NCBI GenBank assembly: GCA_003599255.1
Contig: QZJF01000017.1
Coordinates: 113,278 to 177,277 of the forward strand
Length of the DNA stretch: 64,000 bases
Origin: a candidate division WWE3 bacterium
Lineage (GTDB): Bacteria; Patescibacteriota; WWE3; UBA101185; UBA10185
Direction: 5' to 3'
Part shown: piece by piece, positions 936 to 41,326 of the stretch
How positions within the stretch are numbered: position 1 is the stretch's first letter
Layout: the number at the start of each line of letters is the position of its first letter
Made by a program: the position numbers and the translations under genes
Notes under the pieces: generated by a model
What the model was told of the DNA's origin: nothing
What the model saw: only the letters and a program-made list of their open reading frames with translations
The model's database searches: none

Positions 936-1523
936 TTAGCGACTAAAGATCCACATTGATATGTGCGGACCGACAGTCAGTGCCAACCAAACGATAAGCC
1001 CATATGCGCCGCGCCTGAAGATAGGCAGGGCCGTAGGGATGTGCCGTAGCCGGCGGATGAATGCGGCGATGAAATGCCATATCCACCACACCAAGCTGAC
1101 CCACCAAAGTAATGACCTGTAGTTAGGGGCTTTGCTGCCTTCCATGCCTTCCAGAAGTTTGTTCAGATCGAGAAGGATCGCCGCATCTATCAGCAGGGTA
1201 ATAATTCCGACGGTCACCGCAACAAACATTATCGTCAATGTAGTTCTGCGTGTTTGCGGCCCGGCACCGAAGGTAATTTCGACGAGCCACACCAGAAGTG
1301 CTACGACTGCGATTCCTAGTGCGGATCCACCCACATACAACAGTGCCGTTGTTAAAGTAGGGGCTGAAAAATAGGCAATCACCGGGATGGCAATAAGTCC
1401 CATTAAAAGCGCTGCCCGTGCATTGAGACGAATTCTCCCGTTTCCGAACAAAATGCGGATCAAAATGACTAGGGCCATCGCCGTTAGGAAGAGTTTAGCC
1501 GTCTGAAGATAAAATTGTTCCAC
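936..1523 (-). CDS. Hypothetical polytopic membrane protein (GC-rich gene, about 55% GC)
   Basis: 195-aa ORF with 5-6 hydrophobic helices and no recognisable motif. GC content is clearly higher than the flanking lepA and murJ genes. Confidence 0.4.
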   Translation of the reverse strand: MEQFYLQTAKLFLTAMALVILIRILFGNGRIRLNARAALLMGLIAIPVIAYFSAPTLTTALLYVGGSALGIAVVALLVWLVEITFGAGPQTRRTTLTIMFVAVTVGIITLLIDAAILLDLNKLLEGMEGSKAPNYRSLLWWVSLVWWIWHFIAAFIRRLRHIPTALPIFRRGAYGLIVWLALTVGPHISMWIFSR

Positions 1524-1620: not shown

Positions 1621-3267
1621 TTAAACGTGTGTTTCCGGAGTTTCTGTCCTTACAAGTTTTAAGTTTATATTGAGTTTACGCAGTATTTTATAAAAAAGCT
1701 CAATTTCCGCAACTTTGAAAATTTTAGTGAAGTAGAAATATGCAGACATTCCCACTGTTCCGGCTATTCCCGTAAGAAGAAGCAGGTTGAATGTTCTTGA
1801 TGTATCAAATACCACCCTGTCCAGAAGTTTGAGAGGTACGTAGAGGCCGATGCCCATTAACATTGATGCGTAGGAAATTTTAATGAAAGGTATAACAATT
1901 GTTTCAATCCTGAAGCCGCCGAGCTTTTTGCCAAGAAAGTACATGAGCAATGTCATATCAAGAAAGGATGTAACGGCAAACGTGAAAGCAACAGACCATA
2001 CCCCAAATTTTAATCCTAAGACCATAAAAAGGGATGCCGCAACGTTCATTACCAGAGTGACTGCGCTTATCTTTACCGGGGTTGAGGTGTCCTTAAGCGC
2101 ATAGAAAGCTCTTGTAATAAGATAATTTGCACTTTGAGAGAAGATGGAAAAACTGTAAAAAGCCAGCACATAAGAAGTTTTAACAGTTGCTTCCCACGGA
2201 AAGTTGGAAACTCCGTAAACCAGACGTACTACCGGTATTCGCAGGACAAGCAGTATTACGCTCAAAGGTAATACGAGATACATCATTTGATGGAAAGAAG
2301 TAATAAAAGTCTTTTTGAATTTTTCCAAATTATCATCACCGCTTTCCGACGCAAGGGTTGGCAAACTGGCTGCGGCGATAGACGCCCCGAATAGCATAAT
2401 GGGGAAAGACTGAAGCTGAAGTGCAAATTTGAGAAATATAACCGATGACGATGATATAAGAATTGCCAGGCTGTTATTAATTGTACCCAGAAGATTTGAA
2501 ATAAGAACGCTTACGAGCCTGGGAGGAATAAGACGGGAGATTTCTCTAAGTCCCTTATCTTTAAAGTTGAAGGACATAGTTTGAACGAAGCCGGTTCTTT
2601 TGATATATGGAAGTTGTATCAGGATATGAAATGCCGCCCCCAGAATCGTTCCGTATGCGGGTCCGTAAATACCGTACGTATCGGACAGAAAAATTATACC
2701 TATGAGCATCCCCATGTTATAAGCTATGGGAGCTACGGCGGGAGCAATAAAATATTTAAAAGACTGAAGGATACTTGTTACAAGACTTCCGGCTACCAAT
2801 AACATTTGGCTTATCAGCATAATTCGCATGAGGTTTGCACCCAGCGCGACGTCCTGCTGTGGAAACTTACCCAGCGCGAGCAGATCAATTAATGGTCCGG
2901 CGTATATGTAAATTATCGCGCTTACCACAAGAAAGAAAACAAATGTTGTGTTGATAATCGAAGAGGCTGTTTCGAAAGCTTTTTGTTTATTTTTTTTCAA
3001 AAGCTCCGTAAATACCGGAATAAAGACGGTAGATATGGCCCCCACAATTACGATCGAGTAGATGAGATTTGGTATTTTGTCTGCCGTATAGAATACTGCA
3101 AGTTCTTGTGACACCCCGAACTGACGGGCAAAGAATCTGTTCTTAACAAGACCTAAGATGGCATTTATGCCGCTTGCTACCGCCAACACAAAAGCCGCCG
3201 ATAGAATGCTATTTTGTGTTTCCACCAGAAAAGATGTGAACTTGTTATTCCTTATAATAGCTTTCAT
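1621..3267 (-). CDS. murJ: Lipid II flippase MurJ/MviN family
   Basis: 548 aa with about 14 TM helices. The N-terminus (SILSAAFVLAVASGINAILGLVKNRFFARQFGVS...AVFYTADKIPNLIYSIVIVGAISTVFIPVFTE) is typical of MurJ/MviN. Confidence 0.8.
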   Translation of the reverse strand: MKAIIRNNKFTSFLVETQNSILSAAFVLAVASGINAILGLVKNRFFARQFGVSQELAVFYTADKIPNLIYSIVIVGAISTVFIPVFTELLKKNKQKAFETASSIINTTFVFFLVVSAIIYIYAGPLIDLLALGKFPQQDVALGANLMRIMLISQMLLVAGSLVTSILQSFKYFIAPAVAPIAYNMGMLIGIIFLSDTYGIYGPAYGTILGAAFHILIQLPYIKRTGFVQTMSFNFKDKGLREISRLIPPRLVSVLISNLLGTINNSLAILISSSSVIFLKFALQLQSFPIMLFGASIAAASLPTLASESGDDNLEKFKKTFITSFHQMMYLVLPLSVILLVLRIPVVRLVYGVSNFPWEATVKTSYVLAFYSFSIFSQSANYLITRAFYALKDTSTPVKISAVTLVMNVAASLFMVLGLKFGVWSVAFTFAVTSFLDMTLLMYFLGKKLGGFRIETIVIPFIKISYASMLMGIGLYVPLKLLDRVVFDTSRTFNLLLLTGIAGTVGMSAYFYFTKIFKVAEIELFYKILRKLNINLKLVRTETPETHV

Positions 3268-3322
3268 TTGTTTGGTTCCCAGGGTTTACATTTAACTTTC
3301 ATATGTTATCATACGTAGCGCA

Positions 3323-3631
3323 ATGGCAAATACCAAATCTGCAAAAAAGGCTATAAGAAGCTCTGAAAGAAAAAGATCTCACAACGCAATGTGGGAGAAG
3401 AGGATAAAGGAGACCGTAAAGGTCCTTAAAACTGAGCTTGACAACAAAAACGCCAAACCGGAAATTTTGAACAGTCAATTAACTGCGGTACAAAAGGTCC
3501 TGGATAAGGCAGCTAAAGAGAAAGTTATTCATAAAAACAAGTCAAATAGGCTAAAATCTAGATATGCTAAAAGCATCGCTGCCCTTCTTTCGAAAAAAGG
3601 AACCAGAGGTTCCGCAAAATCTTCAGAATAG
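3323..3631 (+). CDS. rpsT: 30S ribosomal protein S20
   Basis: MANTKSAKKAIRSSERKRSHNAMW....VIHKNKSNRLKSRYAK closely resembles the bS20 consensus (MANIKSAKKR....IHKNKAAR.KS). Confidence 0.85.
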   Translation: MANTKSAKKAIRSSERKRSHNAMWEKRIKETVKVLKTELDNKNAKPEILNSQLTAVQKVLDKAAKEKVIHKNKSNRLKSRYAKSIAALLSKKGTRGSAKSSE

Positions 3632-4157: not shown

Positions 4158-4726
4158 ACATAAATACGGACAGATACGTCACAAGTTTTGTTAGGTCCTA
4201 TAAGGATTCCGAGTTTGTATTAAGACTCTACACTGTTTGGGCTTTAGCTGCGATTGTAGTAATAGGATATTTTGGTATCAGGCCGGCGTTTGTATCGATT
4301 AAGGAAAAGATGCTGCTTATCAATGAGATGGAGCAGATCAACGTAAATCTTGTGGCCAATACGCAGACGTTGGAATCTCTGAAAACGGACATACACACTT
4401 ACAGCAACAATATAAAATATTTAGAGGCATTTATGCCCGCGGAACCGGAAGTTCATTCATATATTCTTGATTTAATCGGGGCGTTGGGGAAGCACGGGTT
4501 TATATTAAGAAACCTTGCTCAATACGATTATCCGGAAGAAGAAAATGCTATAGAAATTAACGTTCAGACGGACGGTACTACCTATCCCGTAGAACTTGTT
4601 AACGAGATCGAAAAACTAAAAAGAATCACAACCGTAAAAAATGTGACCTTTACAAGCCAGTCGCTTTCAACTCGGACTTCGTACAGAGTTGTCATGTCAT
4701 TATATATTTATACACAACCCAGATGA
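4154..4726 (+). CDS. PilO-like type IV pilus assembly protein
   Basis: N-terminal TM helix, a long coiled coil, and a C-terminal domain with a GxY..L..FL-like segment (HSYILDLIGALGKHGFILRNL). Translationally coupled to the PilN-like gene. Confidence 0.4.
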   Translation: MNINTDRYVTSFVRSYKDSEFVLRLYTVWALAAIVVIGYFGIRPAFVSIKEKMLLINEMEQINVNLVANTQTLESLKTDIHTYSNNIKYLEAFMPAEPEVHSYILDLIGALGKHGFILRNLAQYDYPEEENAIEINVQTDGTTYPVELVNEIEKLKRITTVKNVTFTSQSLSTRTSYRVVMSLYIYTQPR

Positions 4727-4905
4727 AGGAATTTATTGTATTAGCAGCCTTAACAACTCTAACCTTAGCGGTACTTTTTTTAAATTCGCTGGGCGATTTT
4801 TCACGTGAAAAATACCTGAATGAAAAAGTACTTGAAATGTCAGTACCAATTGATGTTAAAATAGATACAGAGTTCCTAAAGAATTTAGAACCTGCCAATG
4901 AATAG
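4723..4905 (+). CDS. Small membrane protein (60 aa), possible minor pilus/assembly component
   Basis: ATGA overlap with the upstream gene and a single N-terminal TM helix. No motif recognised. Confidence 0.3.
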   Translation: MKEFIVLAALTTLTLAVLFLNSLGDFSREKYLNEKVLEMSVPIDVKIDTEFLKNLEPANE

Positions 4906-5317
4906 TACACAGCAAGCGCAAAAAGGATTTAAAACATTTTTACTTACACTTTCTATATCCCTTATTATATTCAGTGTTATCTATTATGTGCTGACGAATC
5001 CCTCTTTTAACAAATCCGGCCTTAGCGCAGACATTGAAGACGAACAAGCTGTTTTAATAGAAGAGGAAACTGTGTTCGGAGAATTAGCGAGTCAAAAGAT
5101 GGATGTTCCACAGAGGGCGGTTTTGGCCGGTGCGGATGAAACCGAGGAAACCACACAGGGTACAGCAGCAGTACCGGACAGTGGAACTTTTGAAGTGACT
5201 GTGGGTCTAATTTTATCGGGAATTACTTTTTTGACGGGTTTGTATGTGATCATGCGCGATCCGAGAAAAATGGCTCTTATTGGATTTGAGCGTAGGATCT
5301 TTAAAGATCTGGATTAA
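4898..5317 (+). CDS. Putative sortase substrate: small surface protein with N-terminal anchor/prepilin-like segment and C-terminal sorting signal (VPDSG motif + TM helix + RDPRK tail)
   Basis: The N-terminus (KGFKTFLLTLSISLIIFSV) is pilin-like but lacks Glu5. The C-terminus (VPDSGTFEVTVGLILSGITFLTGLYVIMRDPRK) has the tripartite architecture of LPXTG-type sorting signals. It lies convergent with and adjacent to a sortase gene. Confidence 0.4.
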   Translation: MNSTQQAQKGFKTFLLTLSISLIIFSVIYYVLTNPSFNKSGLSADIEDEQAVLIEEETVFGELASQKMDVPQRAVLAGADETEETTQGTAAVPDSGTFEVTVGLILSGITFLTGLYVIMRDPRKMALIGFERRIFKDLD

Positions 5318-9577: not shown

Positions 9578-10532
9578 GTGCTTCTATGCCTGGCAGGGTT
9601 TTCTTAACCAAGAATTCCAGCATGGATCCACCTCCTGTTGAAACGAAGCTGAACTTTTCCAAGAGTCCCACTCTGTTAGCAGCTGCCACAGTGTCTCCGC
9701 CTCCTATCAAAGAAAAACAATTTGGATTTCCTGTTATTGCCTCTGCGATGGACTTAGTACCTAAGAGATATTTATCTTTTTCGTAAAATCCCATGGGACC
9801 GGCCCATAAAACTGTTTTAGCTGTGCTTATGATATCCACATATTTGCGCACGGTTTCGGGACCTATATCTAACTGGTTTTCGGCATAGTCAAGGGGAAGT
9901 ATCAGATTTTGAGGTATTTCATCTGTCCAATCAAGTCCGATCTTTCCTCCTATTAAAACGTAATCCGCAAGCTGAATAAATTTTGAAACGGTGGGTTTTT
10001 TGCTTTCCAATTTTGCTCCCCCTATAACAACAACAAACGGTTTTTCAGGGGAGTCCAGTATTTTTGTAAGGTGTTGAATTTCTGATTCAAGTCTAAACCC
10101 CGCAAAAGCAGGAAGGATTTTCGGTAGTTGCGCAATAGAAGCGTGTCTCCTGTGCGAAGTTGAGAAATTTTCGTTTACATAAATATCTGCCTTATCTGCC
10201 AATTCCCGAGCGTATTGTTCGTCATTATTTTCTTCCCGTATGTCAAACCTCAGATTTTCCAGTAAAACATAACCGCTAGTTCCAAGCTGCGTGTCAAAAA
10301 AGCTTTTTAAATGTCTTGTACTCAATATATCGTCGACTTTACCGTGTGGGCTACCCATATGACCCCCGAAAATAGGAATACCCCCCTTTTCCACTATAAA
10401 CTTAGTGGTAGGTAGCAGGCCTTCCAGTCTGTATGTTTCTTTTATCACCCCATTTTCTATTGGGACGTCCAGGTCTGCTGCAACAAAGACCCTAGTTCCT
10501 ATTTGTATAGGTGCATCTTTAATGGATTTCAT
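9570..10532 (-). CDS. pgk: Phosphoglycerate kinase (compact form)
   Basis: RVFVAADLDVP near the N-terminus; LENLRFDIREE, GGGDT and STGGGSMLEFLVKKTLPGIEAL motifs. Short at 320 aa. Confidence 0.85.
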   Translation of the reverse strand: MKSIKDAPIQIGTRVFVAADLDVPIENGVIKETYRLEGLLPTTKFIVEKGGIPIFGGHMGSPHGKVDDILSTRHLKSFFDTQLGTSGYVLLENLRFDIREENNDEQYARELADKADIYVNENFSTSHRRHASIAQLPKILPAFAGFRLESEIQHLTKILDSPEKPFVVVIGGAKLESKKPTVSKFIQLADYVLIGGKIGLDWTDEIPQNLILPLDYAENQLDIGPETVRKYVDIISTAKTVLWAGPMGFYEKDKYLLGTKSIAEAITGNPNCFSLIGGGDTVAAANRVGLLEKFSFVSTGGGSMLEFLVKKTLPGIEALG

Positions 10533-16558: not shown

Positions 16559-17299
16559 ATGAAGCCTTATATACTTTATATAATTGCAACGCCGTTGTTT
16601 TTGTTTAGGGCACACTTTGCCGTAACCGATACGGATGTATTGGGAATCACCGATATTAGAGCAAACGCCGAAACATTTTCGGAACACGACATCGAAATTA
16701 ATACAACTTCCAGCTTCCAACAGGAAGAAATAATCGAAACCGAATCGTTACCCTTTGAAATCGTGTACAAAGACGACGATGAGACCGAGTACGGTCAGGA
16801 AGCAGTGTTGCAGGAAGGGGAGGAAGGAAGAAAGGAATACAAATATCTTGTTACTTACTGGTTTGACGAAGAAATCTATCGTAATTTGGTGGATACGCAA
16901 GTATATGAACCCAAGGACGAAATTATAGCCAAAGGCACTAAAATAGTCTGGAGGCCAGTAAATACGGATCAAGGTACGTTCAATTATTGGTACAAGCTGC
17001 GAGTGTGGGCTACAAAATACGATGGCAATTGTGATGGCTGCAGGGGTTTAACGTACAGCGGAACACCGGTGAGAAAAGGAGTTTGCGCAGTTGATCCTAA
17101 AGTGATTCCGTTGGGTACTAACTTTTATGTGGTAGGTTACGGAATGTGTCGAAGTGAAGACATAGGCGGAGCTATAAAAGGCAATAGAATTGATCTGGGA
17201 TATGAAGATGTAATGAAAGGCAGTTGGCGAACCGGTTGGACTGACGTTTACCTTTTAACCAACTCGCCGGAAGGTGATGGAGATTTTTACGATCGATAG
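16559..17299 (+). CDS. G5-domain plus 3D-domain cell-wall protein (YabE/RpfB-like architecture)
   Basis: The ATG at 16559 lies 2 nt after the helicase stop; the track's longer ORF starting at 16475 overlaps the helicase and is rejected. Signal/anchor, a G5-like segment (EIVYKDDDETEYGQEAVLQEGEEGRKEYKYLVTYWFDEE...KGTK), and a C-terminal 3D domain (DPKVIPLGTNFYVVGYG...DIGGAIKGNRIDL). Confidence 0.65.
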   Translation: MKPYILYIIATPLFLFRAHFAVTDTDVLGITDIRANAETFSEHDIEINTTSSFQQEEIIETESLPFEIVYKDDDETEYGQEAVLQEGEEGRKEYKYLVTYWFDEEIYRNLVDTQVYEPKDEIIAKGTKIVWRPVNTDQGTFNYWYKLRVWATKYDGNCDGCRGLTYSGTPVRKGVCAVDPKVIPLGTNFYVVGYGMCRSEDIGGAIKGNRIDLGYEDVMKGSWRTGWTDVYLLTNSPEGDGDFYDR

Positions 17300-23798: not shown

Positions 23799-23909
23799 GT
23801 CCAGGTAATTATAAGCATATTTGCCAAAATCCGGAAAATAGCCTATAATAAATCTTATCGTAAACCAACCTTAAAAAAAGGGTTAATGTATCAGGAAAGG
23901 AGCTTTTGG

Positions 23910-24050
23910 ATGGAAATTTTCGTAGGTCTTTTGGTAGTGGCTATCATCGTTGGAGGAGCAAAATTTTTGCACCTCTCTCCTGAGGAACGAAAAGCCGCAG
24001 GAATTGTAACACCAGAGGAATCCCGGGCTATTCACCATCCCAACCCCTGA
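23910..24050 (+). CDS. Small membrane protein (46 aa), hypothetical
   Basis: Strong SD (GGAAAGGAG) 7 nt upstream of ATG 23910, one TM helix, then SPEERKAAGIVTPEESR. The longer track ORF 23667..24050 is not credible upstream of this start. Confidence 0.3.
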   Translation: MEIFVGLLVVAIIVGGAKFLHLSPEERKAAGIVTPEESRAIHHPNP

Positions 24051-24155
24051 TTCTGTCCGGTCCGACTGCAACATATGGAGAAAAGTTTTCATGAAAACGT
24101 AAAAATACTCTTTCCATAATATAACCAGCCCCGGCCAGCCGCGCTCCGCCCGCTA

Positions 24156-28162: not shown

Positions 28163-29670
28163 TTAATATGAACTTATTTAAAAAGATTTTAAAAAGTATA
28201 GATTTTTCCGGTCCGCACAGGAAATACCCATTTATATTTATTAATGGTGCTTTAATATTATTTCAAGTCTTGTATATCTGGCTCCGCTACAAATATATAA
28301 ACACTACGATTCCTTTTTGGTACGTATTGCCCTGGGGGGATTTCCAGTTAGCATCAAAAGATGCTATCTACCTTCTGCCGCTGACATCAGCAGGAATTCT
28401 GGCGGCGGGGCTGATAATTTCATTACTCGTTAACCGATTTTATATCAGGTACTCATCAGAAATAGTGGGTATTTTTACCACCTTTAGTGTTTTTGCACTA
28501 ACTTATTCTTTAGTGAGAATCATACTCATATCTTCCGTACCATTTGATCCGATAATTAATCCAACCCTACTTTCTTTATCAGTCCCGTTTATGATAGCTT
28601 TTGCTACCGCATATTTTCTTATTCCGCTTTTCATAGAATATGCCAAAGATAAGGGACTTGTTACAAATCCTAACCTTCACATGCACCCAGCAATGGTTCT
28701 TATAAAACCTTCAGTGCGCGGAGCAGGTTTTGTTTACGCAATAATATTTCTAGCATTGACTTTGATTTTTGTTGGTTATTCGAAAAACACGGCCGGTATT
28801 TATTTGTCAGTACTTATGCTCGGAATTCTTGGGATCGTGGATGATTATCAAAATACTCATCAGAAGTCTATGTTCAGAATCCTTGAAAATCCTCTACTTA
28901 GATTATTTCTTCTTTTCTGTGGTGTTTCTGCGGTCGTACTTTCCGGAATTCAGATAGAATTTGTAAGCAATCCGTTTGCTAAGGGTACGTTTGACCTTTT
29001 AACTTTCACAATTGAGATTGGGGGCAGCGCGATACCTGTATTGGCCGATATTGTGACTATGTTATGGATAGTTTGGTTATTAAATTTGTTATCCTGGTCC
29101 AATGGTATTGATGGCCAATATAGCGGGATAATAGGTATTTCATCGATCTTTCTGTGTCTCTTAGCACTCAGATTCGTGCCTTTGGAACCGATACATTTAC
29201 AAGTTGCCACTATGGCTGCCATAAGTGCCGGTATAGCTCTTGGATTTACAAAGAAAACGTGGTATCCGTCCAGCGTGATGTGGGGCTTTGGGGCCATGTC
29301 TGCAGGGCTTGTTGTGGCAGTGTTGTCGATTCTGATAAATACCAAAGTTGTAACAACCGTTCTTTTCCTGCTAATACCTTTCTTAGACGGTGCGGTAACA
29401 ATTATACGGAGGATAATCCAAAAGAAGAATCCTTTATCCGGAGATAGGGGACATTTGCACCATCTTCTTCTTGACCGTGGGTGGAGTGTTCCAAAAATAG
29501 CGATGTTCTATTGGTTAAGTACGGCCTTGTTCGGTATTATCGGGCTGATATCCTCGGATAAGTACATAATCCAGGTTGTTCTAATATTGGGGGGAGTAGT
29601 CGCCTCTCTTATAGTGCTATTGAACTTGAGATCAATAAAAAAGCAAAAGCAGATACAAGAATCTGTGTGA
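28159..29670 (+). CDS. Polyprenyl-phosphate sugar-1-phosphate transferase (MraY/WecA family) with ~200-aa N-terminal membrane extension
   Basis: IVDDYQN (DD motif), NLLSWSNGIDGQYSG (N..N..DG.DG motif) and GDRGHLHHLLL (His-rich motif) match the MraY/WecA/WbpL superfamily signatures. Confidence 0.65.
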   Translation: MINMNLFKKILKSIDFSGPHRKYPFIFINGALILFQVLYIWLRYKYINTTIPFWYVLPWGDFQLASKDAIYLLPLTSAGILAAGLIISLLVNRFYIRYSSEIVGIFTTFSVFALTYSLVRIILISSVPFDPIINPTLLSLSVPFMIAFATAYFLIPLFIEYAKDKGLVTNPNLHMHPAMVLIKPSVRGAGFVYAIIFLALTLIFVGYSKNTAGIYLSVLMLGILGIVDDYQNTHQKSMFRILENPLLRLFLLFCGVSAVVLSGIQIEFVSNPFAKGTFDLLTFTIEIGGSAIPVLADIVTMLWIVWLLNLLSWSNGIDGQYSGIIGISSIFLCLLALRFVPLEPIHLQVATMAAISAGIALGFTKKTWYPSSVMWGFGAMSAGLVVAVLSILINTKVVTTVLFLLIPFLDGAVTIIRRIIQKKNPLSGDRGHLHHLLLDRGWSVPKIAMFYWLSTALFGIIGLISSDKYIIQVVLILGGVVASLIVLLNLRSIKKQKQIQESV

Positions 29671-30085
29671 GTAAACCGAAAATAACCGGCGCAGAAAATT
29701 GGAGTGCACTTTGTATTTTTCCAAGTAGTTTTGAGATAAAGTTAGGATTTTTACTAAACATGACCGGTGCCGTAAGTGCATCAGGCAAGACTGCAGCTAT
29801 CCCGCACAAAAATATGTTCAAAGCTAAGGACGCATCTCCCGCTATCCAGAGCGCATACAAAGTGAAAAACGTTCCGGTTGCTATCCCCAAACCGAAATCT
29901 GCCATAACGGCAATCGGCCTCCATCCGGTTTGTCTCTGCTCGATCGTAGTATCAGTGTAAAAATCCCAATGCGGAACCATATCCCCCATAAAATGCATCA
30001 CAAACGCAAGGGGAACCGCAATTTGAGGGTTGGGTATCGACGCACCTATAGCTATTCCGACCAATGTATGTGGTGTCAGCAACAT
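29609..30085 (-). CDS. Hypothetical membrane protein (possible DUF457-like hydrolase)
   Basis: HTLVGIAIG...MHFMGDMVPHWD His/Asp cluster and four TM helices. Convergently overlaps the MraY-like gene's 3' end by 62 nt. Confidence 0.3.
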   Translation of the reverse strand: MLLTPHTLVGIAIGASIPNPQIAVPLAFVMHFMGDMVPHWDFYTDTTIEQRQTGWRPIAVMADFGLGIATGTFFTLYALWIAGDASLALNIFLCGIAAVLPDALTAPVMFSKNPNFISKLLGKIQSALQFSAPVIFGLLTQILVSAFAFLLISSSIAL

Positions 30086-30217: not shown

Positions 30218-30883
30218 GTGCGAATGTTACTTATCGAAGATGAGACAGAATATATTGAACCCTTTATAACGGAAATCGAAAAGCAATACGTTGTTGACGT
30301 GGCCTATAACGGAATTGAAGGTTCTTATTTGTCGTCGATAAATGAATACGATGTAATTATTCTGGACACCAGTCTCCCGGATATGGATCCCGTAGTACTG
30401 TGCAGTGACGCCAGGGCGTGTAATATATCAAGTCCGATATTACTATTGTCCGACAGAGGGACCTCTAACAGTGCGATAAAATCTCTTGAGGCGGGGGCGG
30501 ACGCACTGCTTTATAAGCCGGTAAAATCCCACGAACTTTCGGCGCAGGTTTCTGCGCTCATAAGAAGATCCAACGGTCTTCCGGTCCCTCAAATAAAAAT
30601 TGGTGAATTCGTGATCAATATTTTTTCAAAAACCGTCTTTTGCCAGGGAAAGCCAATTAAGATTAGGCGTAAGGAATACGATATTTTAGAATATTTGTGT
30701 GTAAATTTGAACGAGACCGTTACTAAAGAAAAACTGCTCGAGCACATTTGGGGAGACGGAATTTATATGCAGTCAAATACTTTGGAAGTGCATGTTAGAA
30801 ATTTAAGAAAGACATTAAGTAACTTTTGTGACAAAGAGCTAATTAAGACTGTACGCGGTTACGGATACAGAATTGAATCCTAA
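30218..30883 (+). CDS. OmpR-family response regulator (orphan in this window)
   Basis: Receiver domain (LLIEDE...IILDTSLPDMD...LYKPV) plus a winged-helix output ending in TVRGYGYRI. GTG start inferred from the track. Confidence 0.8.
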   Translation: MRMLLIEDETEYIEPFITEIEKQYVVDVAYNGIEGSYLSSINEYDVIILDTSLPDMDPVVLCSDARACNISSPILLLSDRGTSNSAIKSLEAGADALLYKPVKSHELSAQVSALIRRSNGLPVPQIKIGEFVINIFSKTVFCQGKPIKIRRKEYDILEYLCVNLNETVTKEKLLEHIWGDGIYMQSNTLEVHVRNLRKTLSNFCDKELIKTVRGYGYRIES

Positions 30884-30947
30884 AACAAAGGCGTTCGCTC
30901 CCCAAAATTTTGGAAAATTGAACGCCCTCTTGCATTGCGGCAGGTCT

Positions 30948-31268
30948 TTAGTTGCGTGTTTGCTTTACGCCCTTGATTACACTGCCTTTGGTTGCCGAGA
31001 TGGTTTGTGATCCTGATCCGGTTCCGGTGGATTCCTGTTCCACAATTGTTTTTCCGTCAGAATCGATCACGCGAATTGATCCCCGTCCCGTTAAAGACTG
31101 ATCTACAACCTGGTTGTTCTCGATAATCAGGCGGGCCAGTCCTTTCCATCTGACCAAGTGGGTAGTGGTATCAATGGGAATTACGTCCGGCGCACCCATG
31201 TCTTTTTGGTACAGAATTGTCAGGCGCTGCACTTCAAGAACGTCCATCTCAACAGAATCCGCATCCAT
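30948..31268 (-). CDS. Hypothetical protein (106 aa) in a GC-rich island
   Basis: Strong SD (AAGGAGG) upstream of the ATG at 31268 and a hairpin plus T-run downstream. No recognisable motif. About 45-50% GC against a genome background near 37%. Confidence 0.35.
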   Translation of the reverse strand: MDADSVEMDVLEVQRLTILYQKDMGAPDVIPIDTTTHLVRWKGLARLIIENNQVVDQSLTGRGSIRVIDSDGKTIVEQESTGTGSGSQTISATKGSVIKGVKQTRN

Positions 31269-31431
31269 TTGTGTGCCTCCTTTTTTCTAAAGAGTCCGAT
31301 GAGTTTCCATATTATATATCCCATAGCCAGTCATGTAAAATGGCGCGGTTTAAACAAAGTTGCTCATTTTATCCTAATTGATACAATACCTTAACCCCGA
31401 ACTAGCACAACTAAAAAGGAAGGAGGTAGCC

Positions 31432-31668
31432 GTGAGCAAAGGTAAAGGACACAAGGCCAGGCCAAACATTCCCAAGAAAAAGACTGCCCAATGTGCACTA
31501 TGCGTTGAAGCACAAGGGATCATTAAGGGCACACGTCCGGAATCCTGGGGTAGAACCGTCGGGTGGGCATGGGATCATATTGATACCTGCAAGACCGAAT
31601 ATGCCGCGCAGATTAAAAGGAAAATGCGTGCCAGTACCCCAAAAATTCATTTCGTTAAGAAAGGGTAA
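31432..31668 (+). CDS. Small basic Cys/His-containing protein (about 78 aa), hypothetical
   Basis: Likely GTG start at 31432 with SD GGAAGGAGG 8 nt upstream; the track's ATG at 31378 has no SD. C-x2-C...H-x3-C arrangement (QCALC...HIDTC). Followed by a strong terminator. Confidence 0.35.
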   Translation: MSKGKGHKARPNIPKKKTAQCALCVEAQGIIKGTRPESWGRTVGWAWDHIDTCKTEYAAQIKRKMRASTPKIHFVKKG

Positions 31669-31697
31669 AGGAATGTTCGGAGAATGCACTCGGCTAT

Positions 31698-31755
31698 GGG
31701 GCAGGTCCGTTAATATCACTTAACCTATGATATGCGAACCTGCCCTTTTGTTTTT
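31698..31755 (+). terminator. Rho-independent terminator
   Basis: GGGCAGGT ... ACCTGCCC stem (8 bp, with an internal ATATCA/TGATAT sub-stem) followed by TTTTGTTTTT. Confidence 0.5.
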
Positions 31756-31797
31756 AAGTTGTGAAAATCACAAAAACCTAATAATATTCTAATTGTA

Positions 31798-33616: not shown

Positions 33617-34891
33617 ATGAAACTTTTAAATCTTGTTGAAAACAAGTATTTCTACATTTTATCTGTTTTGGTATTTTTTCTTCCTTTAACTTACTCTAGA
33701 AGTACAAACGAATTGTTTGAATTTCCCAAGATGTTTTTTGTTTATTTTGCAGGGACAATTTTGGTCACCGCTTTCGCTGTTGAAGTAATCCTAAGAAGCA
33801 CAAAAATCAAAAAAATAGCCTTTTTACCATTGGTATATTTATTTACATTTCTTTTGTCAGTAATATTTTCTTCGCACATATACACTTCTTTGTGGGGGTA
33901 CTACACAAGATTTAATGACGGACTTTTATCGGTTTGCTTTTTTATTTTTATATATTTCGTCATAAAAAACGTTTTGTCGAAAACTCAAACAGACGCATTA
34001 CTGAAGATATCCGTAACAACACTGATTCCTGCAGGGATAATTTCTATTGCCCAGCATTATGGTATTAGTGCATTGTGGAGCAGTACTCCGGTTGAGAGGG
34101 CATTTTCTACATTCGGTCAACCCAACTGGTTTGCGCAATACGTTGTTTTGATCCTTCCTCTAAGTATTTATTATTACGTTTTTGATCGCAATTCCCTGTT
34201 TTGGTTTACGACTTCAGTCATTGGGTTTGCCGGAACGTGGTTTTCTTATTCTTTATCTGGATTGCTGGGACTGTTGATAAGTTTGTTAATATTTGCCCTT
34301 TTATTAACTGGAAAAATTTTAACCGATAGGGGTAAGTTTAAAAAAATTGTAATTTTATTCACAATATATTTTTTAATAGGGGTACTAAATCCGGGGTTAC
34401 TCACAGACAGATTTCACGATTTAAATCAGGATATCCACAAATTCTTTGTAATCACACCAAAAGTGTATGCGCAGGAGTTATCCGGCACTTCAGAATATAG
34501 GGTTTCGGACCCAGGGTTTATCAGGTCGGGATTGTGGCAGGGGACATTGAATCTGATCTTTTCTTCACCAAAAGTATTTTTGATTGGCACCGGTCCTGAA
34601 ACATACCCTTACGAATTTCAACCTTTTAGAACCGGAGATATTAATTATTCTTCGGAGTGGAATTTTGTAATGAACAAACCTCACAATTATTATCTTGAGA
34701 TATGGTCGGAACAAGGGATACTTGGTCTATTTACGTACATATTGCTTATCTTTTGGCTGTATATGAAAACCCCTTATAAATATAAACCGGGTTTGGCCGG
34801 GTTTTATGTGACTAATATATTTGGGTGGCCGACGGTAGCAACAAGTCTGCTGTTTTGGATTTTATTGGCCGGAACGGAGGCAGATAAATGA
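33617..34891 (+). CDS. O-antigen ligase/polymerase-like (Wzy_C-type) membrane protein
   Basis: About 10-12 TM helices with one larger external loop in the C-terminal half (YAQELSGTSEYRVSDPGFIRSGLWQGTL...), resembling the O-antigen ligase domain. Confidence 0.5.
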   Translation: MKLLNLVENKYFYILSVLVFFLPLTYSRSTNELFEFPKMFFVYFAGTILVTAFAVEVILRSTKIKKIAFLPLVYLFTFLLSVIFSSHIYTSLWGYYTRFNDGLLSVCFFIFIYFVIKNVLSKTQTDALLKISVTTLIPAGIISIAQHYGISALWSSTPVERAFSTFGQPNWFAQYVVLILPLSIYYYVFDRNSLFWFTTSVIGFAGTWFSYSLSGLLGLLISLLIFALLLTGKILTDRGKFKKIVILFTIYFLIGVLNPGLLTDRFHDLNQDIHKFFVITPKVYAQELSGTSEYRVSDPGFIRSGLWQGTLNLIFSSPKVFLIGTGPETYPYEFQPFRTGDINYSSEWNFVMNKPHNYYLEIWSEQGILGLFTYILLIFWLYMKTPYKYKPGLAGFYVTNIFGWPTVATSLLFWILLAGTEADK

Positions 34892-39930: not shown

Positions 39931-40668
39931 ATGAAAACGCTGATAGCTTGGTTGTCATTTTTTGCAATGTTGGCGTCGTTTCAGTTTTGGCTGAAGGACT
40001 GGGCACTGACCGCTCTCGTGATGTCAGCCGTGGTGTTGCATGAGTTTGGGCACGCTATCGTCCTTTGGTCCAGAGGTGTACAGATAGGGATGATATTTGT
40101 CCCGTTTCTCGCAGCGGCGGTGTATTATACGCCCGAACAAGCCAAAAAGCTGAACGACTTTGAGGACGCAATTACATCTCTGGCGGGCCCGCTTGTCAAC
40201 ATCGGTTTGGCTGTCCTTGGTGCCGTCTTACTGGCCGCAGGATATGAGCCAAAATACACGTTGGCCATGATCAGTCTCAACGTGGGGCTGGCTTTCTTTA
40301 ACCTGCTACCGATTCCCGGGCTTGACGGCGGAAGATTCCAGGCCAGCATCTTTAAGAGTCTGGACGAGTCCGAAGACAGGCAAGTGGTTATGATCGTGTC
40401 CGTACTTGCCGTAAGCTTTGCCGTCATCATGCTTCTTATGGGCGCTTATTCAGTAACGTATATTTTGGTGATTTTCCTGACCAGAATGAACTCGAATAAA
40501 GACAACCCTGCGGATGCTAGGAGCAGCAAGGCAATGAGCCGCGATACGGCATTTAGTCTTGTAAGAGTCTATGCCGTGGTACTATTTGTGCTCATGATTG
40601 CTAATTCGGCAGTTCCTGTGTGGACCGAATTTTTTGAAATTTGGCCCTTTTACCTGATCGGAAAGTAA
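39931..40668 (+). CDS. Site-2 protease-like M50 family membrane metalloprotease
   Basis: HEFGH zinc motif in TM helix 2 and a downstream NLLPIPGLDGG motif. About 53% GC. Confidence 0.7.
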   Translation: MKTLIAWLSFFAMLASFQFWLKDWALTALVMSAVVLHEFGHAIVLWSRGVQIGMIFVPFLAAAVYYTPEQAKKLNDFEDAITSLAGPLVNIGLAVLGAVLLAAGYEPKYTLAMISLNVGLAFFNLLPIPGLDGGRFQASIFKSLDESEDRQVVMIVSVLAVSFAVIMLLMGAYSVTYILVIFLTRMNSNKDNPADARSSKAMSRDTAFSLVRVYAVVLFVLMIANSAVPVWTEFFEIWPFYLIGK

Positions 40669-40831: not shown

Positions 40832-41326
40832 TCAAAGAAGATATGAAAGATCCAAGTCTTCGTTGATGGCATCCCACGAGGGGATTTCCGGAATATGCAT
40901 GCCCCAGTTGCCGCCCTTTTCGTAGAGCATCCACAGTTCGCTGAATCTTAACTTTGCAATCTGCAGAGCATAGGTACCGAGCGGTTCTTCAACAGCATGT
41001 TGGGCCAGTAAATCTTTCATGACGATGAGGCCATGTTTAAGTTCTGAAAGACTTAGGCCGGGGCAAACCACAAATACCAGGCCGATATCCCAATGTGAAA
41101 GACCAACGTATCTGTTAAAGCGATGCTTGCCGAACACCTCTTTCAGTGTAGCCAGCAGGTACCAGAGATACGCAGTATCAGCTTTCACATGAGCCATCCC
41201 GCGGGGAATCTTTTTCCAGTTTCCAAATCTTGCGCGGGGCATTCGATTCAGCAGATCCAGTCTGGATTGGAGATCACGGCCGTAGTTCACATATTTGCCC
41301 ACACTATCGTAACGACTTGCGCACAT
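40832..41326 (-). CDS. Hypothetical protein (164 aa), GC-rich
   Basis: No motif recognised; about 50% GC. Confidence 0.35.
   Translation of the reverse strand: MCASRYDSVGKYVNYGRDLQSRLDLLNRMPRARFGNWKKIPRGMAHVKADTAYLWYLLATLKEVFGKHRFNRYVGLSHWDIGLVFVVCPGLSLSELKHGLIVMKDLLAQHAVEEPLGTYALQIAKLRFSELWMLYEKGGNWGMHIPEIPSWDAINEDLDLSYLL

What the first reader, a model, noticed from the sequence alone, without database searches (positions are those of the whole stretch)
30948..31755. GC-rich mini-island with two divergently transcribed small proteins, strong SD sequences and their own terminators
The two small genes run at about 45-50% GC against a local background near 37%. Both have near-perfect SD sequences and clean hairpin plus T-run terminators, so they look like real, well-expressed genes. 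Their composition suggests horizontal acquisition. Neither matches a family I can recognise. The 78-aa protein is lysine-rich with C-x2-C...H-x3-C, which could be a zinc ribbon or a nucleic-acid-binding function. The pair lies between an orphan response regulator and envelope-biosynthesis genes.
Basis: seen in the sequence. Interest (0 to 1): 0.5.

Follow-up and report, generated by a model that had tools for sequence, protein, structure and literature searches.

The report
Variable two-gene islet in WWE3 bacterium
Two small, divergently transcribed genes of unknown function form a real, GC-rich accessory module that sits in a variable slot of a cell-envelope gene cluster in an uncultured WWE3 (CPR) bacterium; it is a lineage-restricted curiosity, not a housekeeping function or a recognisable system.

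Summary
Gene A (30948-31268, minus strand, 106 aa) and gene B (31432-31668, plus strand, 78 aa, GTG start) each have a Shine-Dalgarno site, a promoter-like site and a hairpin plus T-run terminator. Both are under purifying selection (dN/dS 0.08 and 0.12). Their GC is 0.49 and 0.48, but the window mean is 0.405, not 0.37. After correcting for amino-acid composition, only A is a clear outlier (z=3.0); B is not (z=1.6).

Comparative data support the island reading. Three relatives (UbiA 73-74% identical) have an empty slot between the response regulator and UbiA. A closer lineage (UbiA 85%) holds a strongly diverged version at the same slot: B' at 40% identity, a remote A homologue X116, and an unrelated 107-aa gene. 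All of these are also about 50% GC, against flanks of 35-42%.

Both families are tiny: a search of 1.84 billion representative proteins returned five hits, including B itself. No Pfam, NCBIfam, PHROG, PADLOC, PDB, phage or plasmid match was found.

B keeps an invariant CxxC-x24-HxxxC, but its model is three helices, not a zinc ribbon, and has no fold neighbour.

Function is unknown. My best guess, at low confidence, is that B is a zinc-stabilised nucleic-acid-binding regulator acting at the shared promoter region and A is variable cargo.

The parts
30882..30929 (-). Intrinsic terminator of gene A: hairpin 30887-30929 followed by UUUGUUUU. It lies tail-to-tail with the response-regulator gene that ends at 30883.
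   Evidence: Fold gives -22.1 kcal/mol, z=-2.2. The GGCGTTCG/CGAACGCC stem is kept in L001 and L009 while the loop varies.
30948..31268 (-). Gene A: 106 aa, acidic (pI 5.3), no Cys, predicted all-beta. It carries conserved 'MG.P' and 'G.G.IRV.D.DG' motifs and a C-terminal 'GS.I.GVKQTRN' tail.
   Evidence: ORF. Identical protein on record as RJR26927.1, a hypothetical protein of candidate division WWE3. dN/dS is 0.08 against the 83%-identical relative. Family members are P0003, P0129, P0131 and the remote X116. The single-sequence AF2 model is unusable, pLDDT 46.
31276..31282 (-). Shine-Dalgarno AAGGAGG of gene A, 7 nt before the ATG.
   Evidence: Read from the sequence. Conserved in L001 and L009.
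31311..31339 (-). Promoter-like site for gene A: TTTACA-17-TATAAT, 11 of 12 matches.
   Evidence: The -10 block is alignable in L001 and L009.
31269..31431 (.). Divergent control region of 163 nt holding back-to-back promoters. The palindrome GTTTAAAC (31348-31355) lies between the two -35 boxes.
   Evidence: 90% identical to L001, against 78% for the flanking coding DNA. Blocks are still alignable with L009. No stable RNA fold: z=0.13 for 31340-31434, z=-1.27 for 31266-31315 on the minus strand, and z=0.87 for 31394-31600.
31360..31387 (+). Promoter-like site for gene B: TTGCTC-16-TACAAT, with TG one base before the -10 hexamer, giving the extended -10 TGATACAAT (31379-31387).
   Evidence: Read from the sequence. 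It is below the scan's -35 threshold. The extended -10 is kept as TGGTAAAAT in L009.
31418..31426 (+). Shine-Dalgarno GGAAGGAGG of gene B, 5 nt before the GTG.
   Evidence: Conserved in L001 and L009, where the start is an ATG at the aligned position.
31432..31668 (+). Gene B: 78 aa, basic (pI 10.3). Lys/Arg/Pro-rich tails flank a three-helix core with invariant C21-x2-C24 ... H49-x3-C53, W39, W45 and D48.
   Evidence: ORF and start. RJR26928.1, hypothetical protein, is a member of its 90%-identity cluster. Homologues are the L001 partial at 89%, P0130 at 49% and P0124 at 39-40%. AF2 model: mean pLDDT 77, about 90 for residues 21-60; helices H22-32, H43-52 and H56-68. No fold neighbour.
31698..31757 (+). 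Intrinsic terminator of gene B: long hairpin 31698-31746 followed by TTTTGTTTTT.
   Evidence: Inverted repeat I1. Fold gives -26.8 kcal/mol, z=-2.5.
30930..31753 (.). Extent of the variable islet between conserved flanks.
   Evidence: blastn of window against L009: homology ends at 30877 (end of the response regulator) and resumes at 31754 (UbiA upstream region), with nothing alignable between.

Best explanation
This is a lineage-restricted accessory module of two independently transcribed small protein genes. It occupies a variable slot between the OmpR-type response regulator and the UbiA (decaprenyl-phosphate phosphoribosyltransferase-like) gene, inside an envelope-glycan cluster of a candidate division WWE3 (Katanobacteria, CPR) genome.

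**Shown.**
- Both genes are real and under purifying selection.
- The module is compositionally distinct, about 0.49 GC against 0.40.
- The slot is empty in more distant relatives.
- A sister lineage carries a very diverged version of the same module, with the same back-to-back promoter layout.
- Both protein families are tiny, confined to the few WWE3-type contigs recovered here, and match nothing described.

**Inferred.**
- The module behaves as a small replacement-type flexible genomic islet. It was probably gained once in this sub-clade and then exchanged or diversified by recombination between the conserved flanks.
- Divergence is not clock-like. B is 89% identical to its copy in one relative whose response regulator is 82% identical. 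It is only 40% identical in another whose response regulator is 67% and UbiA 85% identical.

**Mechanistic guess, about 0.3.**
- B is a zinc-stabilised three-helix protein with a CCHC site and basic disordered tails. It binds nucleic acid and acts at the highly conserved 163-nt divergent promoter region.
- It thereby controls itself and the oppositely transcribed A-type gene.
- A-type proteins are fast-evolving beta-rich cargo that also occur without B elsewhere in these genomes.
For: **Coding and selection.** Third-position-dominated differences and dN/dS of 0.08 (A) and 0.12 (B), against 0.05 for the response regulator.

**Expression signals.** Shine-Dalgarno sites, promoter-like sites and terminators.

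**Composition.** A has z=3.0 after amino-acid correction. In L009 the slot genes have GC 0.50 and GC3 0.51-0.54, against flanks of GC 0.35-0.42. The same holds in L001 and L006.

**Slot variability.**
- Empty in L007 (192-nt gap), L008 (27 nt) and L019 (about 320 nt).
- Different occupants on two contigs for which no DNA was available.
- A+B in L001.
- X116+X107+B' in L009-L012, with full flank synteny at 53-86% amino-acid identity.
- Sharp boundaries at 30877 and 31754.

**Homology within the module.**
- B against B': 39% identity, E 1e-20.
- The A profile against X116: hhalign probability 92.5%, E 4.8e-7.
- Promoter blocks are alignable.

**Rarity.** Five hits with E<=1e-3 among 1.84e9 representatives. 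Nothing in the genome, metagenome, viral, phage or plasmid scans.

**B features.** Invariant CxxC...HxxxC, pI 10.3 and a confident helical core.

**Control region.** The intergenic region is 90% conserved against 78% for coding DNA.
Against: - Zinc binding is inferred from the ligand pattern only. I could not inspect the model coordinates.
- No conserved operator-like repeat is shared by the window and L009. GTTTAAAC is kept only in L001.
- B's own codon usage is not significantly atypical.
- No donor, integrase, att repeat or mobile-element gene was found, so acquisition is inferred from presence/absence and composition only. Loss in the other lineages is not excluded.
- Only a handful of relatives could be examined, and several are short contigs.
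Confidence: 0.55

Rival explanations
1. This is an ancestral, fast-evolving pair and not an acquired islet. A and B arose or were present early in this WWE3 clade, evolve quickly in place, and were deleted in other lineages. The elevated GC reflects amino-acid composition and gene-specific constraints.
For: - About half of the GC excess is explained by amino-acid composition, and B is not a codon-usage outlier.
- The module sits at exactly the same slot, with the same promoter architecture, in the window, L001 and L009.
- No mobility genes or flanking repeats were seen.
- Flank proteins themselves range down to 53% identity.
Against: - A's synonymous GC shift (z=3.0) exceeds every core gene.
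- The same +10-point GC shift marks the non-homologous X107 and many other ORFan islets in these genomes.
- Rates are inconsistent. Against L001, A and B diverge no faster than the response regulator. Against L009 they diverge far more.
- Three relatives have a clean empty slot.
Confidence: 0.25
2. This is a two-component conflict system, such as a toxin-antitoxin pair, an abortive-infection or defence system, or an immunity pair. One small protein would neutralise the other, and the pair would sit in a hotspot as defence islets do.
For: - One partner is small and basic and the other small and acidic.
- The locus is strain-variable with rapid diversification.
- The genes are ORFans confined to a narrow clade.
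Against: - The genes are divergent, each with its own promoter and terminator, not a co-transcribed operon.
- No PADLOC, Pfam or NCBIfam hit.
- A-type genes occur without B (L013, L017).
- L009 has an extra unrelated gene between the A-like gene and B'.
Confidence: 0.1
3. This is a remnant of a mobile element's regulatory switch, a cI/cro-like divergent pair left by a degraded prophage, plasmid or integrative element.
For: - Two small genes are transcribed back-to-back from a compact, highly conserved control region.
- Composition is atypical.
- Presence is patchy.
Against: - No PHROG hit.
- No match in viral contigs, the phage collection or plasmids.
- No BFVD fold match.
- No integrase, att repeats or other element genes nearby.
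- Both genes are under strong purifying selection, not decaying.
Confidence: 0.07
4. The genes are housekeeping small proteins (ribosomal or similar), or the GC-rich stretch is a structured non-coding RNA and not genes.
For: B is small, Lys-rich and has a strong Shine-Dalgarno site. GC-rich patches in AT-rich genomes are often RNA genes.
Against: - Only five hits among 1.84e9 proteins, and the module is absent from close relatives.
- No Rfam match at gathering thresholds across the window, and none at E<=1 locally apart from one spurious lncRNA hit.
- No tRNA or tmRNA here.
- The codon-position substitution pattern fits the two ORFs.
- No excess RNA folding.
Confidence: 0.02

Closest known systems
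Replacement-type flexible genomic islands or islets in envelope-glycan clusters of streamlined bacteria. This concept comes from my own knowledge of the population-genomics literature, not from a paper retrieved here.
   Same: The chromosomal slot is the same and lies between conserved syntenic flanks. Gene content differs between close relatives: empty, A+B, X116+X107+B', and others. Composition is atypical. The location is within a surface-polysaccharide cluster that is itself variable: Wzy is only 53% identical, and L007 has an extra PMT_2 gene.
   Different: It is tiny, about 0.8 kb with two genes. The cargo is not glycosyltransferases but two ORFan small proteins. GC is higher than the core, not lower. 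The B component is retained across versions.
Zinc-binding anti-sigma (ZAS, zf-HC2) domains
   Same: Both are small helical domains with a His/Cys zinc site that includes an H-x3-C element at a helix end.
   Different: ZAS has H-x3-C-x2-C preceded by a distal ligand, whereas B has C-x2-C ... H-x3-C. There is no Pfam hit at E<=10, no adjacent sigma-factor gene, and no structural match.
Phage P2 Ogr/Delta-type small zinc-finger transcription activators. The resemblance is recalled from knowledge and is a lead only.
   Same: Both are basic proteins of about 75 aa with C-x2-C, then about 22-24 residues, then a second ligand pair.
   Different: The second pair is H-x3-C, not C-x4-C. There is no Pfam or PHROG hit, no phage context, and the predicted fold is helical.
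Zinc ribbon
   Same: Four potential ligands are arranged as two pairs.
   Different: The zinc ribbon is a beta fold with two knuckles. B's ligands sit at the N-cap of helix 1 and within helix 2 of a three-helix core.

Membership tests
Zinc ribbon | Two CxxC/CxxH zinc knuckles borne on beta-hairpins that form a small beta-sheet | tested here: not met
   The AF2 model of B from a 3-sequence alignment has pLDDT 89-93 over residues 21-60. It shows helices 22-32, 43-52 and 56-68 with only a 2-residue bridge. H49 and C53 lie in helix 2.
ZAS anti-sigma factor (zf-HC2) | H-x3-C-x2-C motif and a profile match to PF13490 | tested here: not met
   The motif is C21-x2-C24 ... H49-x3-C53. No Pfam hit for any of the 4 members at E<=10.
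ZAS anti-sigma factor (zf-HC2) | Co-located or co-transcribed ECF sigma factor | tested here: not met
   The neighbours are the response regulator, A and UbiA. There is no sigma-70 family gene within +/-10 kb.
Ogr/Delta zinc-finger activators | Profile match (PF04606 or a PHROG family) and phage or satellite context | tested here: not met
   No Pfam or PHROG hits. No phage or viral-contig matches.
Type II toxin-antitoxin or known defence systems | Co-transcribed gene pair with recognised toxin, antitoxin or defence domains | tested here: not met
   The genes are divergent with separate promoters and terminators. No PADLOC, Pfam or NCBIfam hits.
Flexible genomic islet (strain-variable accessory locus) | Same slot between conserved syntenic flanks, with different content or empty in relatives | tested here: met
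   L007, L008 and L019 are empty. L009-L012 carry X116+X107+B'. L001 carries A+B. Flanks are syntenic. blastn boundaries are 30877 and 31754.
Flexible genomic islet (strain-variable accessory locus) | Compositional deviation from the core genome | tested here: met
   GC is 0.485-0.495 against a core of 0.40. A has z=3.0 after amino-acid correction, but B only 1.6. The shift is the same in L001, L006 and L009.
Flexible genomic islet (strain-variable accessory locus) | Identifiable transfer mechanism or donor (integrase, att sites, mobile-element genes) | tested here: not met
   No flanking direct repeats, no integrase nearby, and no phage or plasmid match. Homologous recombination through the flanks is inferred, not shown.
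Ribosomal or housekeeping small proteins | Broad phylogenetic distribution and a profile match | tested here: not met
   Five hits in 1.84e9 representatives. Absent in close relatives. No Pfam or NCBIfam match.
Zinc-binding protein (generic) | Four conserved Cys/His ligands brought together in space, with bound metal | tested here: inconclusive
   The ligands are invariant in 4 of 4 sequences at 39-89% identity. Metal content cannot be tested in silico.

The most novel reading that the evidence does not exclude
B would be the founding member of a new zinc-stabilised three-helix nucleic-acid-binding fold. Together with the fast-diversifying A-type beta proteins, it would form a previously unrecognised kind of exchangeable module in CPR episymbionts. 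GC-rich ORFan islets scattered through WWE3 genomes would be swapped between lineages and would mediate host, phage or cell-surface interactions.
Probability: 0.1. Interest if true: 0.6.

Novelty: new member of a known kind. Interest (0 to 1): 0.3.

Why it matters
If the reading is right, this is a clean, minimal example of how very small CPR genomes carry strain-variable accessory genes. It is an 0.8-kb cassette with its own expression signals, swapped or diversified between conserved envelope genes.

It also marks a wider pattern of GC-rich ORFan islets in WWE3 genomes. Those islets could be mined as a class for functions in symbiont-host or phage interaction.

B adds a candidate new small zinc-binding protein family. 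None of this bears on a long-standing open question, and the functions remain unknown.

Tried and rejected
- **Profile libraries.** Pfam, NCBIfam, PHROGs and PADLOC scans of A and B, and of all family members at E<=10, gave only noise: ArlS_N at E 0.06, Por_Secre_tail at 0.1, bPH_6 at 0.046.
- **PDB by sequence.** Single-sequence and profile searches gave nothing significant. The best hits were uS12 at E 0.055 and DUF3992 at 0.32.
- **Word-indexed homology search.** It found only the proteins themselves plus one 83% relative of A.
- **Back-translated pattern scans.** Scans of genome contigs (two), metagenome contigs (two) and viral contigs (two) found nothing. They did not even recover the source contig, so these negatives are weak.
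- **Phage and plasmid collections.** No match.
- **Structure of A.** The single-sequence AF2 model had pLDDT 46 and was unusable, so no fold search was attempted.
- **Rfam.** No RNA family.
- **RNA-structure explanation for the low synonymous divergence in B.** Rejected, z=+0.87.
- **Relation of A to other ORFs.** hhalign of the A profile against X107 and against two other GC-rich ORFans in the window showed no relation.
- **High GC3 as a mark of high expression.** Rejected, because GroES and GroEL have GC3 of 0.37-0.39.
- **Literature.** Two searches returned nothing relevant.

Full report
**1. What is there**

The window is a contig of an uncultured candidate division WWE3 bacterium (Katanobacteria, CPR). 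Gene A's product is identical to RJR26927.1 (locus C4561_04075). RJR26928.1 (C4561_04080) is a member of gene B's 90%-identity cluster. Both lie on a 254,712-bp JGI contig.

- Gene A runs 30948-31268 on the minus strand and encodes 106 aa from an ATG. AAGGAGG lies 7 nt upstream.
- Gene B runs 31432-31668 on the plus strand and encodes 78 aa from a GTG. GGAAGGAGG lies 5 nt upstream.
- The longer 96-aa ORF from TTG 31378 is unlikely to be the true B. The Shine-Dalgarno site and the aligned ATG start of the L009 homologue both point to 31432.

A has a near-consensus promoter, TTTACA-17-TATAAT, at 31339-31311. B has TTGCTC-16-TACAAT, with TG one base before the -10 hexamer, giving an extended -10 (TGATACAAT) at 31360-31387. 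I read this from the sequence; it falls below the scan's -35 threshold. The two promoters lie back to back, about 20 bp apart.

Both terminators fold well.
- B's hairpin is 31698-31746, followed by TTTTGTTTTT (-26.8 kcal/mol, z=-2.5).
- A's hairpin is 30887-30929, followed by UUUGUUUU (-22.1 kcal/mol, z=-2.2).

No Rfam family, tRNA or tmRNA lies in this region.

**2. Are they genes?**

Yes. A 1.3-kb contig from another sample (L001) carries the response regulator, then A (83% amino-acid identity), then the first 53 codons of B (89% identity), in the same arrangement.

Differences fall mainly at third codon positions: 13/5/40 for A and 3/4/12 for B. The response regulator shows 30/13/90. Nei-Gojobori dN/dS is 0.08 for A, 0.12 for B and 0.05 for the response regulator.

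**3. Composition**

The window is 40.5% GC, and gene GC has mean 0.404 and sd 0.035.

A is 0.489 GC. B is 0.485 GC over its 77 codons from the GTG start. I resampled synonymous codons from core usage for each protein's own amino-acid sequence.
- For A, expected GC is 0.442 against 0.495 observed (z=3.0; GC3 z=2.5). That is beyond every core gene, whose maximum is 2.3.
- For B, expected GC is 0.457 against 0.485 observed (z=1.6; GC3 z=1.4). That is inside the core range.

So about half of the excess comes from amino-acid composition.

High GC3 is not a mark of high expression here, because GroES and GroEL have GC3 of 0.37-0.39.

**4. Comparative evidence**

This evidence is decisive for the island reading. 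I used the adjacent UbiA/DPPR-synthase-like protein to find relatives and then read their contigs.

- Three lineages with UbiA at 73-74% identity have an empty slot between the response regulator and UbiA. The gaps are 192 nt in L007, 27 nt in L008 and about 320 nt in L019.
One has a 134-aa receiver-only gene, and the other has three co-directional small genes.
- The lineage with UbiA at 85% identity (WWE3 RIFOXYC1_FULL_39_7 type; L006, L009-L012) is fully syntenic over 16 kb, and its flank proteins are 53-86% identical to the window.
- In that lineage the slot holds X116 (minus strand), X107 (minus strand) and a 78-aa B' (plus strand).

Within that diverged module:
- B' is a true B homologue: 39% identity, E 1e-20, with CxxC...WAWDHIxxC kept.
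- X116 is a remote A homologue: hhalign probability 92.5%, E 4.8e-7, 26% identity over A residues 11-71.
- X107 is unrelated to A.
- All three genes are about 50% GC with GC3 of 0.51-0.54, against flanks of GC 0.35-0.42.

At the nucleotide level, homology between the window and L009 stops at 30877 and resumes at 31754. The response-regulator terminator stem and the UbiA upstream region are shared flank. Promoter and Shine-Dalgarno blocks of the divergent control region can still be aligned with L009. The module is therefore homologous as a unit but far more diverged than its surroundings.

**5. Non-clock-like divergence**

Against L001, the response regulator is 82% identical, A 83% and B 89%. 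Against L009, the response regulator is 67%, UbiA 85%, B 40% and A-to-X116 26%.

Against L001, the tract from the intergenic region into B is also half as diverged as A and the response regulator on either side. The intergenic region is 90% identical, and B's dS is 0.47 against 1.5-1.8 for A and the response regulator. RNA structure does not explain this (z=+0.87).

I read both facts as signs of recombinational exchange of the cassette or parts of it. Episodic selection is not excluded.

**6. The two protein families**

A full HMMER pass over 1.84 billion representative proteins returned five hits.
- For A: P0003 at 83%, P0129 at 44%, and P0131, which is a tandem duplication of the A-type domain.
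- For B: itself and P0130 at 49%.

P0129 lies elsewhere in the RIFOXYC1-type genome. It is followed by a 254-aa GC-rich ORFan, and no B gene is nearby. P0131 stands alone beside a NYN-domain gene. A-type proteins therefore do not need B.

B, in every case where context is visible, lies about 130-140 nt upstream of the next gene and on the same strand. That gene is UbiA in the window and in L006 and L009-L012. On the 1.1-kb P0130 contig it is an unidentified 206-aa partial ORF.

No Pfam, NCBIfam, PHROG, PADLOC, PDB-sequence, phage, plasmid or viral-contig match exists for either family.

**7. Structure**

B is basic (pI 10.3), with Lys/Arg/Pro-rich tails. C21, C24, H49, C53, W39, W45 and D48 are invariant in all four sequences.

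AlphaFold2 with the three-sequence alignment gives a confident core, with pLDDT about 90 for residues 21-60. It shows helices 22-32, 43-52 and 56-68. CxxC sits at the N-cap of helix 1, and HxxxC sits in helix 2. This is not a zinc ribbon.

A is acidic (pI 5.3) and was predicted all-beta. The single-sequence model had pLDDT 46 and is unusable.

**8. Interpretation**

Shown: this is a real, selected, independently expressed two-gene accessory module in a strain-variable slot of an envelope-glycan cluster.

Inferred: it is a small replacement-type flexible islet, probably exchanged by recombination through its conserved flanks. No integrase, att repeats or donor were found.

Mechanism, at low confidence of about 0.3: B is a zinc-stabilised small nucleic-acid-binding protein acting at the unusually conserved divergent control region, and A-type proteins are diversifying cargo.

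The rivals are in-situ fast evolution with loss elsewhere (0.25), a conflict or TA-like pair (0.1) and a mobile-element switch remnant (0.07). A housekeeping or ncRNA reading is rejected.

**9. Novelty and score**

Both families are undescribed, and B may have a new small fold. The kind of thing is familiar, though: lineage-specific ORFans in a variable genomic islet.

Interest is modest at 0.3. The wider pattern of GC-rich ORFan islets in WWE3 genomes is the more interesting lead.

Noticed in passing
window 936-1523(-), 16748-16972(-), 23883-24092(-), 39931-40668(+), 40832-41326(-): Five other ORFs are GC outliers as strong as A or stronger after correcting for amino-acid composition (z = 5.0, 4.3, 2.8, 5.8 and 3.9). 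Only 39931-40668 has a Pfam hit, to an M50 peptidase; the rest are ORFans. GC-rich islets appear to be a general feature of this genome.
   Followed up: partly
L013 8001-9106 (also L014-L016): The A-type paralogue P0129 (99 aa, 44% identical to A) sits elsewhere in a related WWE3 genome. A 254-aa ORFan with GC 0.527 follows it after a 41-nt gap, and no B gene is nearby. The same locus has further GC-rich ORFans at 3160-3597, 4547-5317 and 10026-10271.
   Followed up: partly
L017 79-669: P0131 is a 196-aa protein made of two tandem A-type domains. It has its own promoter-like sequence and terminator and lies next to a NYN-domain gene.
   Followed up: partly
window 31269-31590 versus L001: The intergenic region and the first 53 codons of B are about half as diverged as A and the response regulator on either side. 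Nucleotide identity is 88-90% against 78%, and dS is 0.47 against 1.5-1.8. No RNA structure explains it, so it may be a recent recombination tract.
   Followed up: partly
L009 15482-15898: A 138-aa ORF with GC 0.54 and GC3 0.62 lies after AlaRS and has no counterpart in the window. It is another variable GC-rich islet at a second slot.
   Followed up: no
L007 3438-5030; window 33617-34891: The envelope cluster is itself variable. L007 carries an extra PMT_2 glycosyltransferase between the 158-aa membrane gene and the response regulator. The Wzy_C protein is the most diverged flank gene, at 53% identity between the window and L009.
   Followed up: no
window 29609-30085(-): A 158-aa predicted membrane ORF has no Pfam family. 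It overlaps the 3' end of the GT4 gene by 62 nt on the opposite strand, and it is conserved at 73% identity and syntenic in relatives.
   Followed up: no
window 31348-31355: The 8-bp palindrome GTTTAAAC lies exactly between the two -35 boxes of the divergent promoters. It is kept in L001 but not in L009, and is a candidate operator.
   Followed up: no
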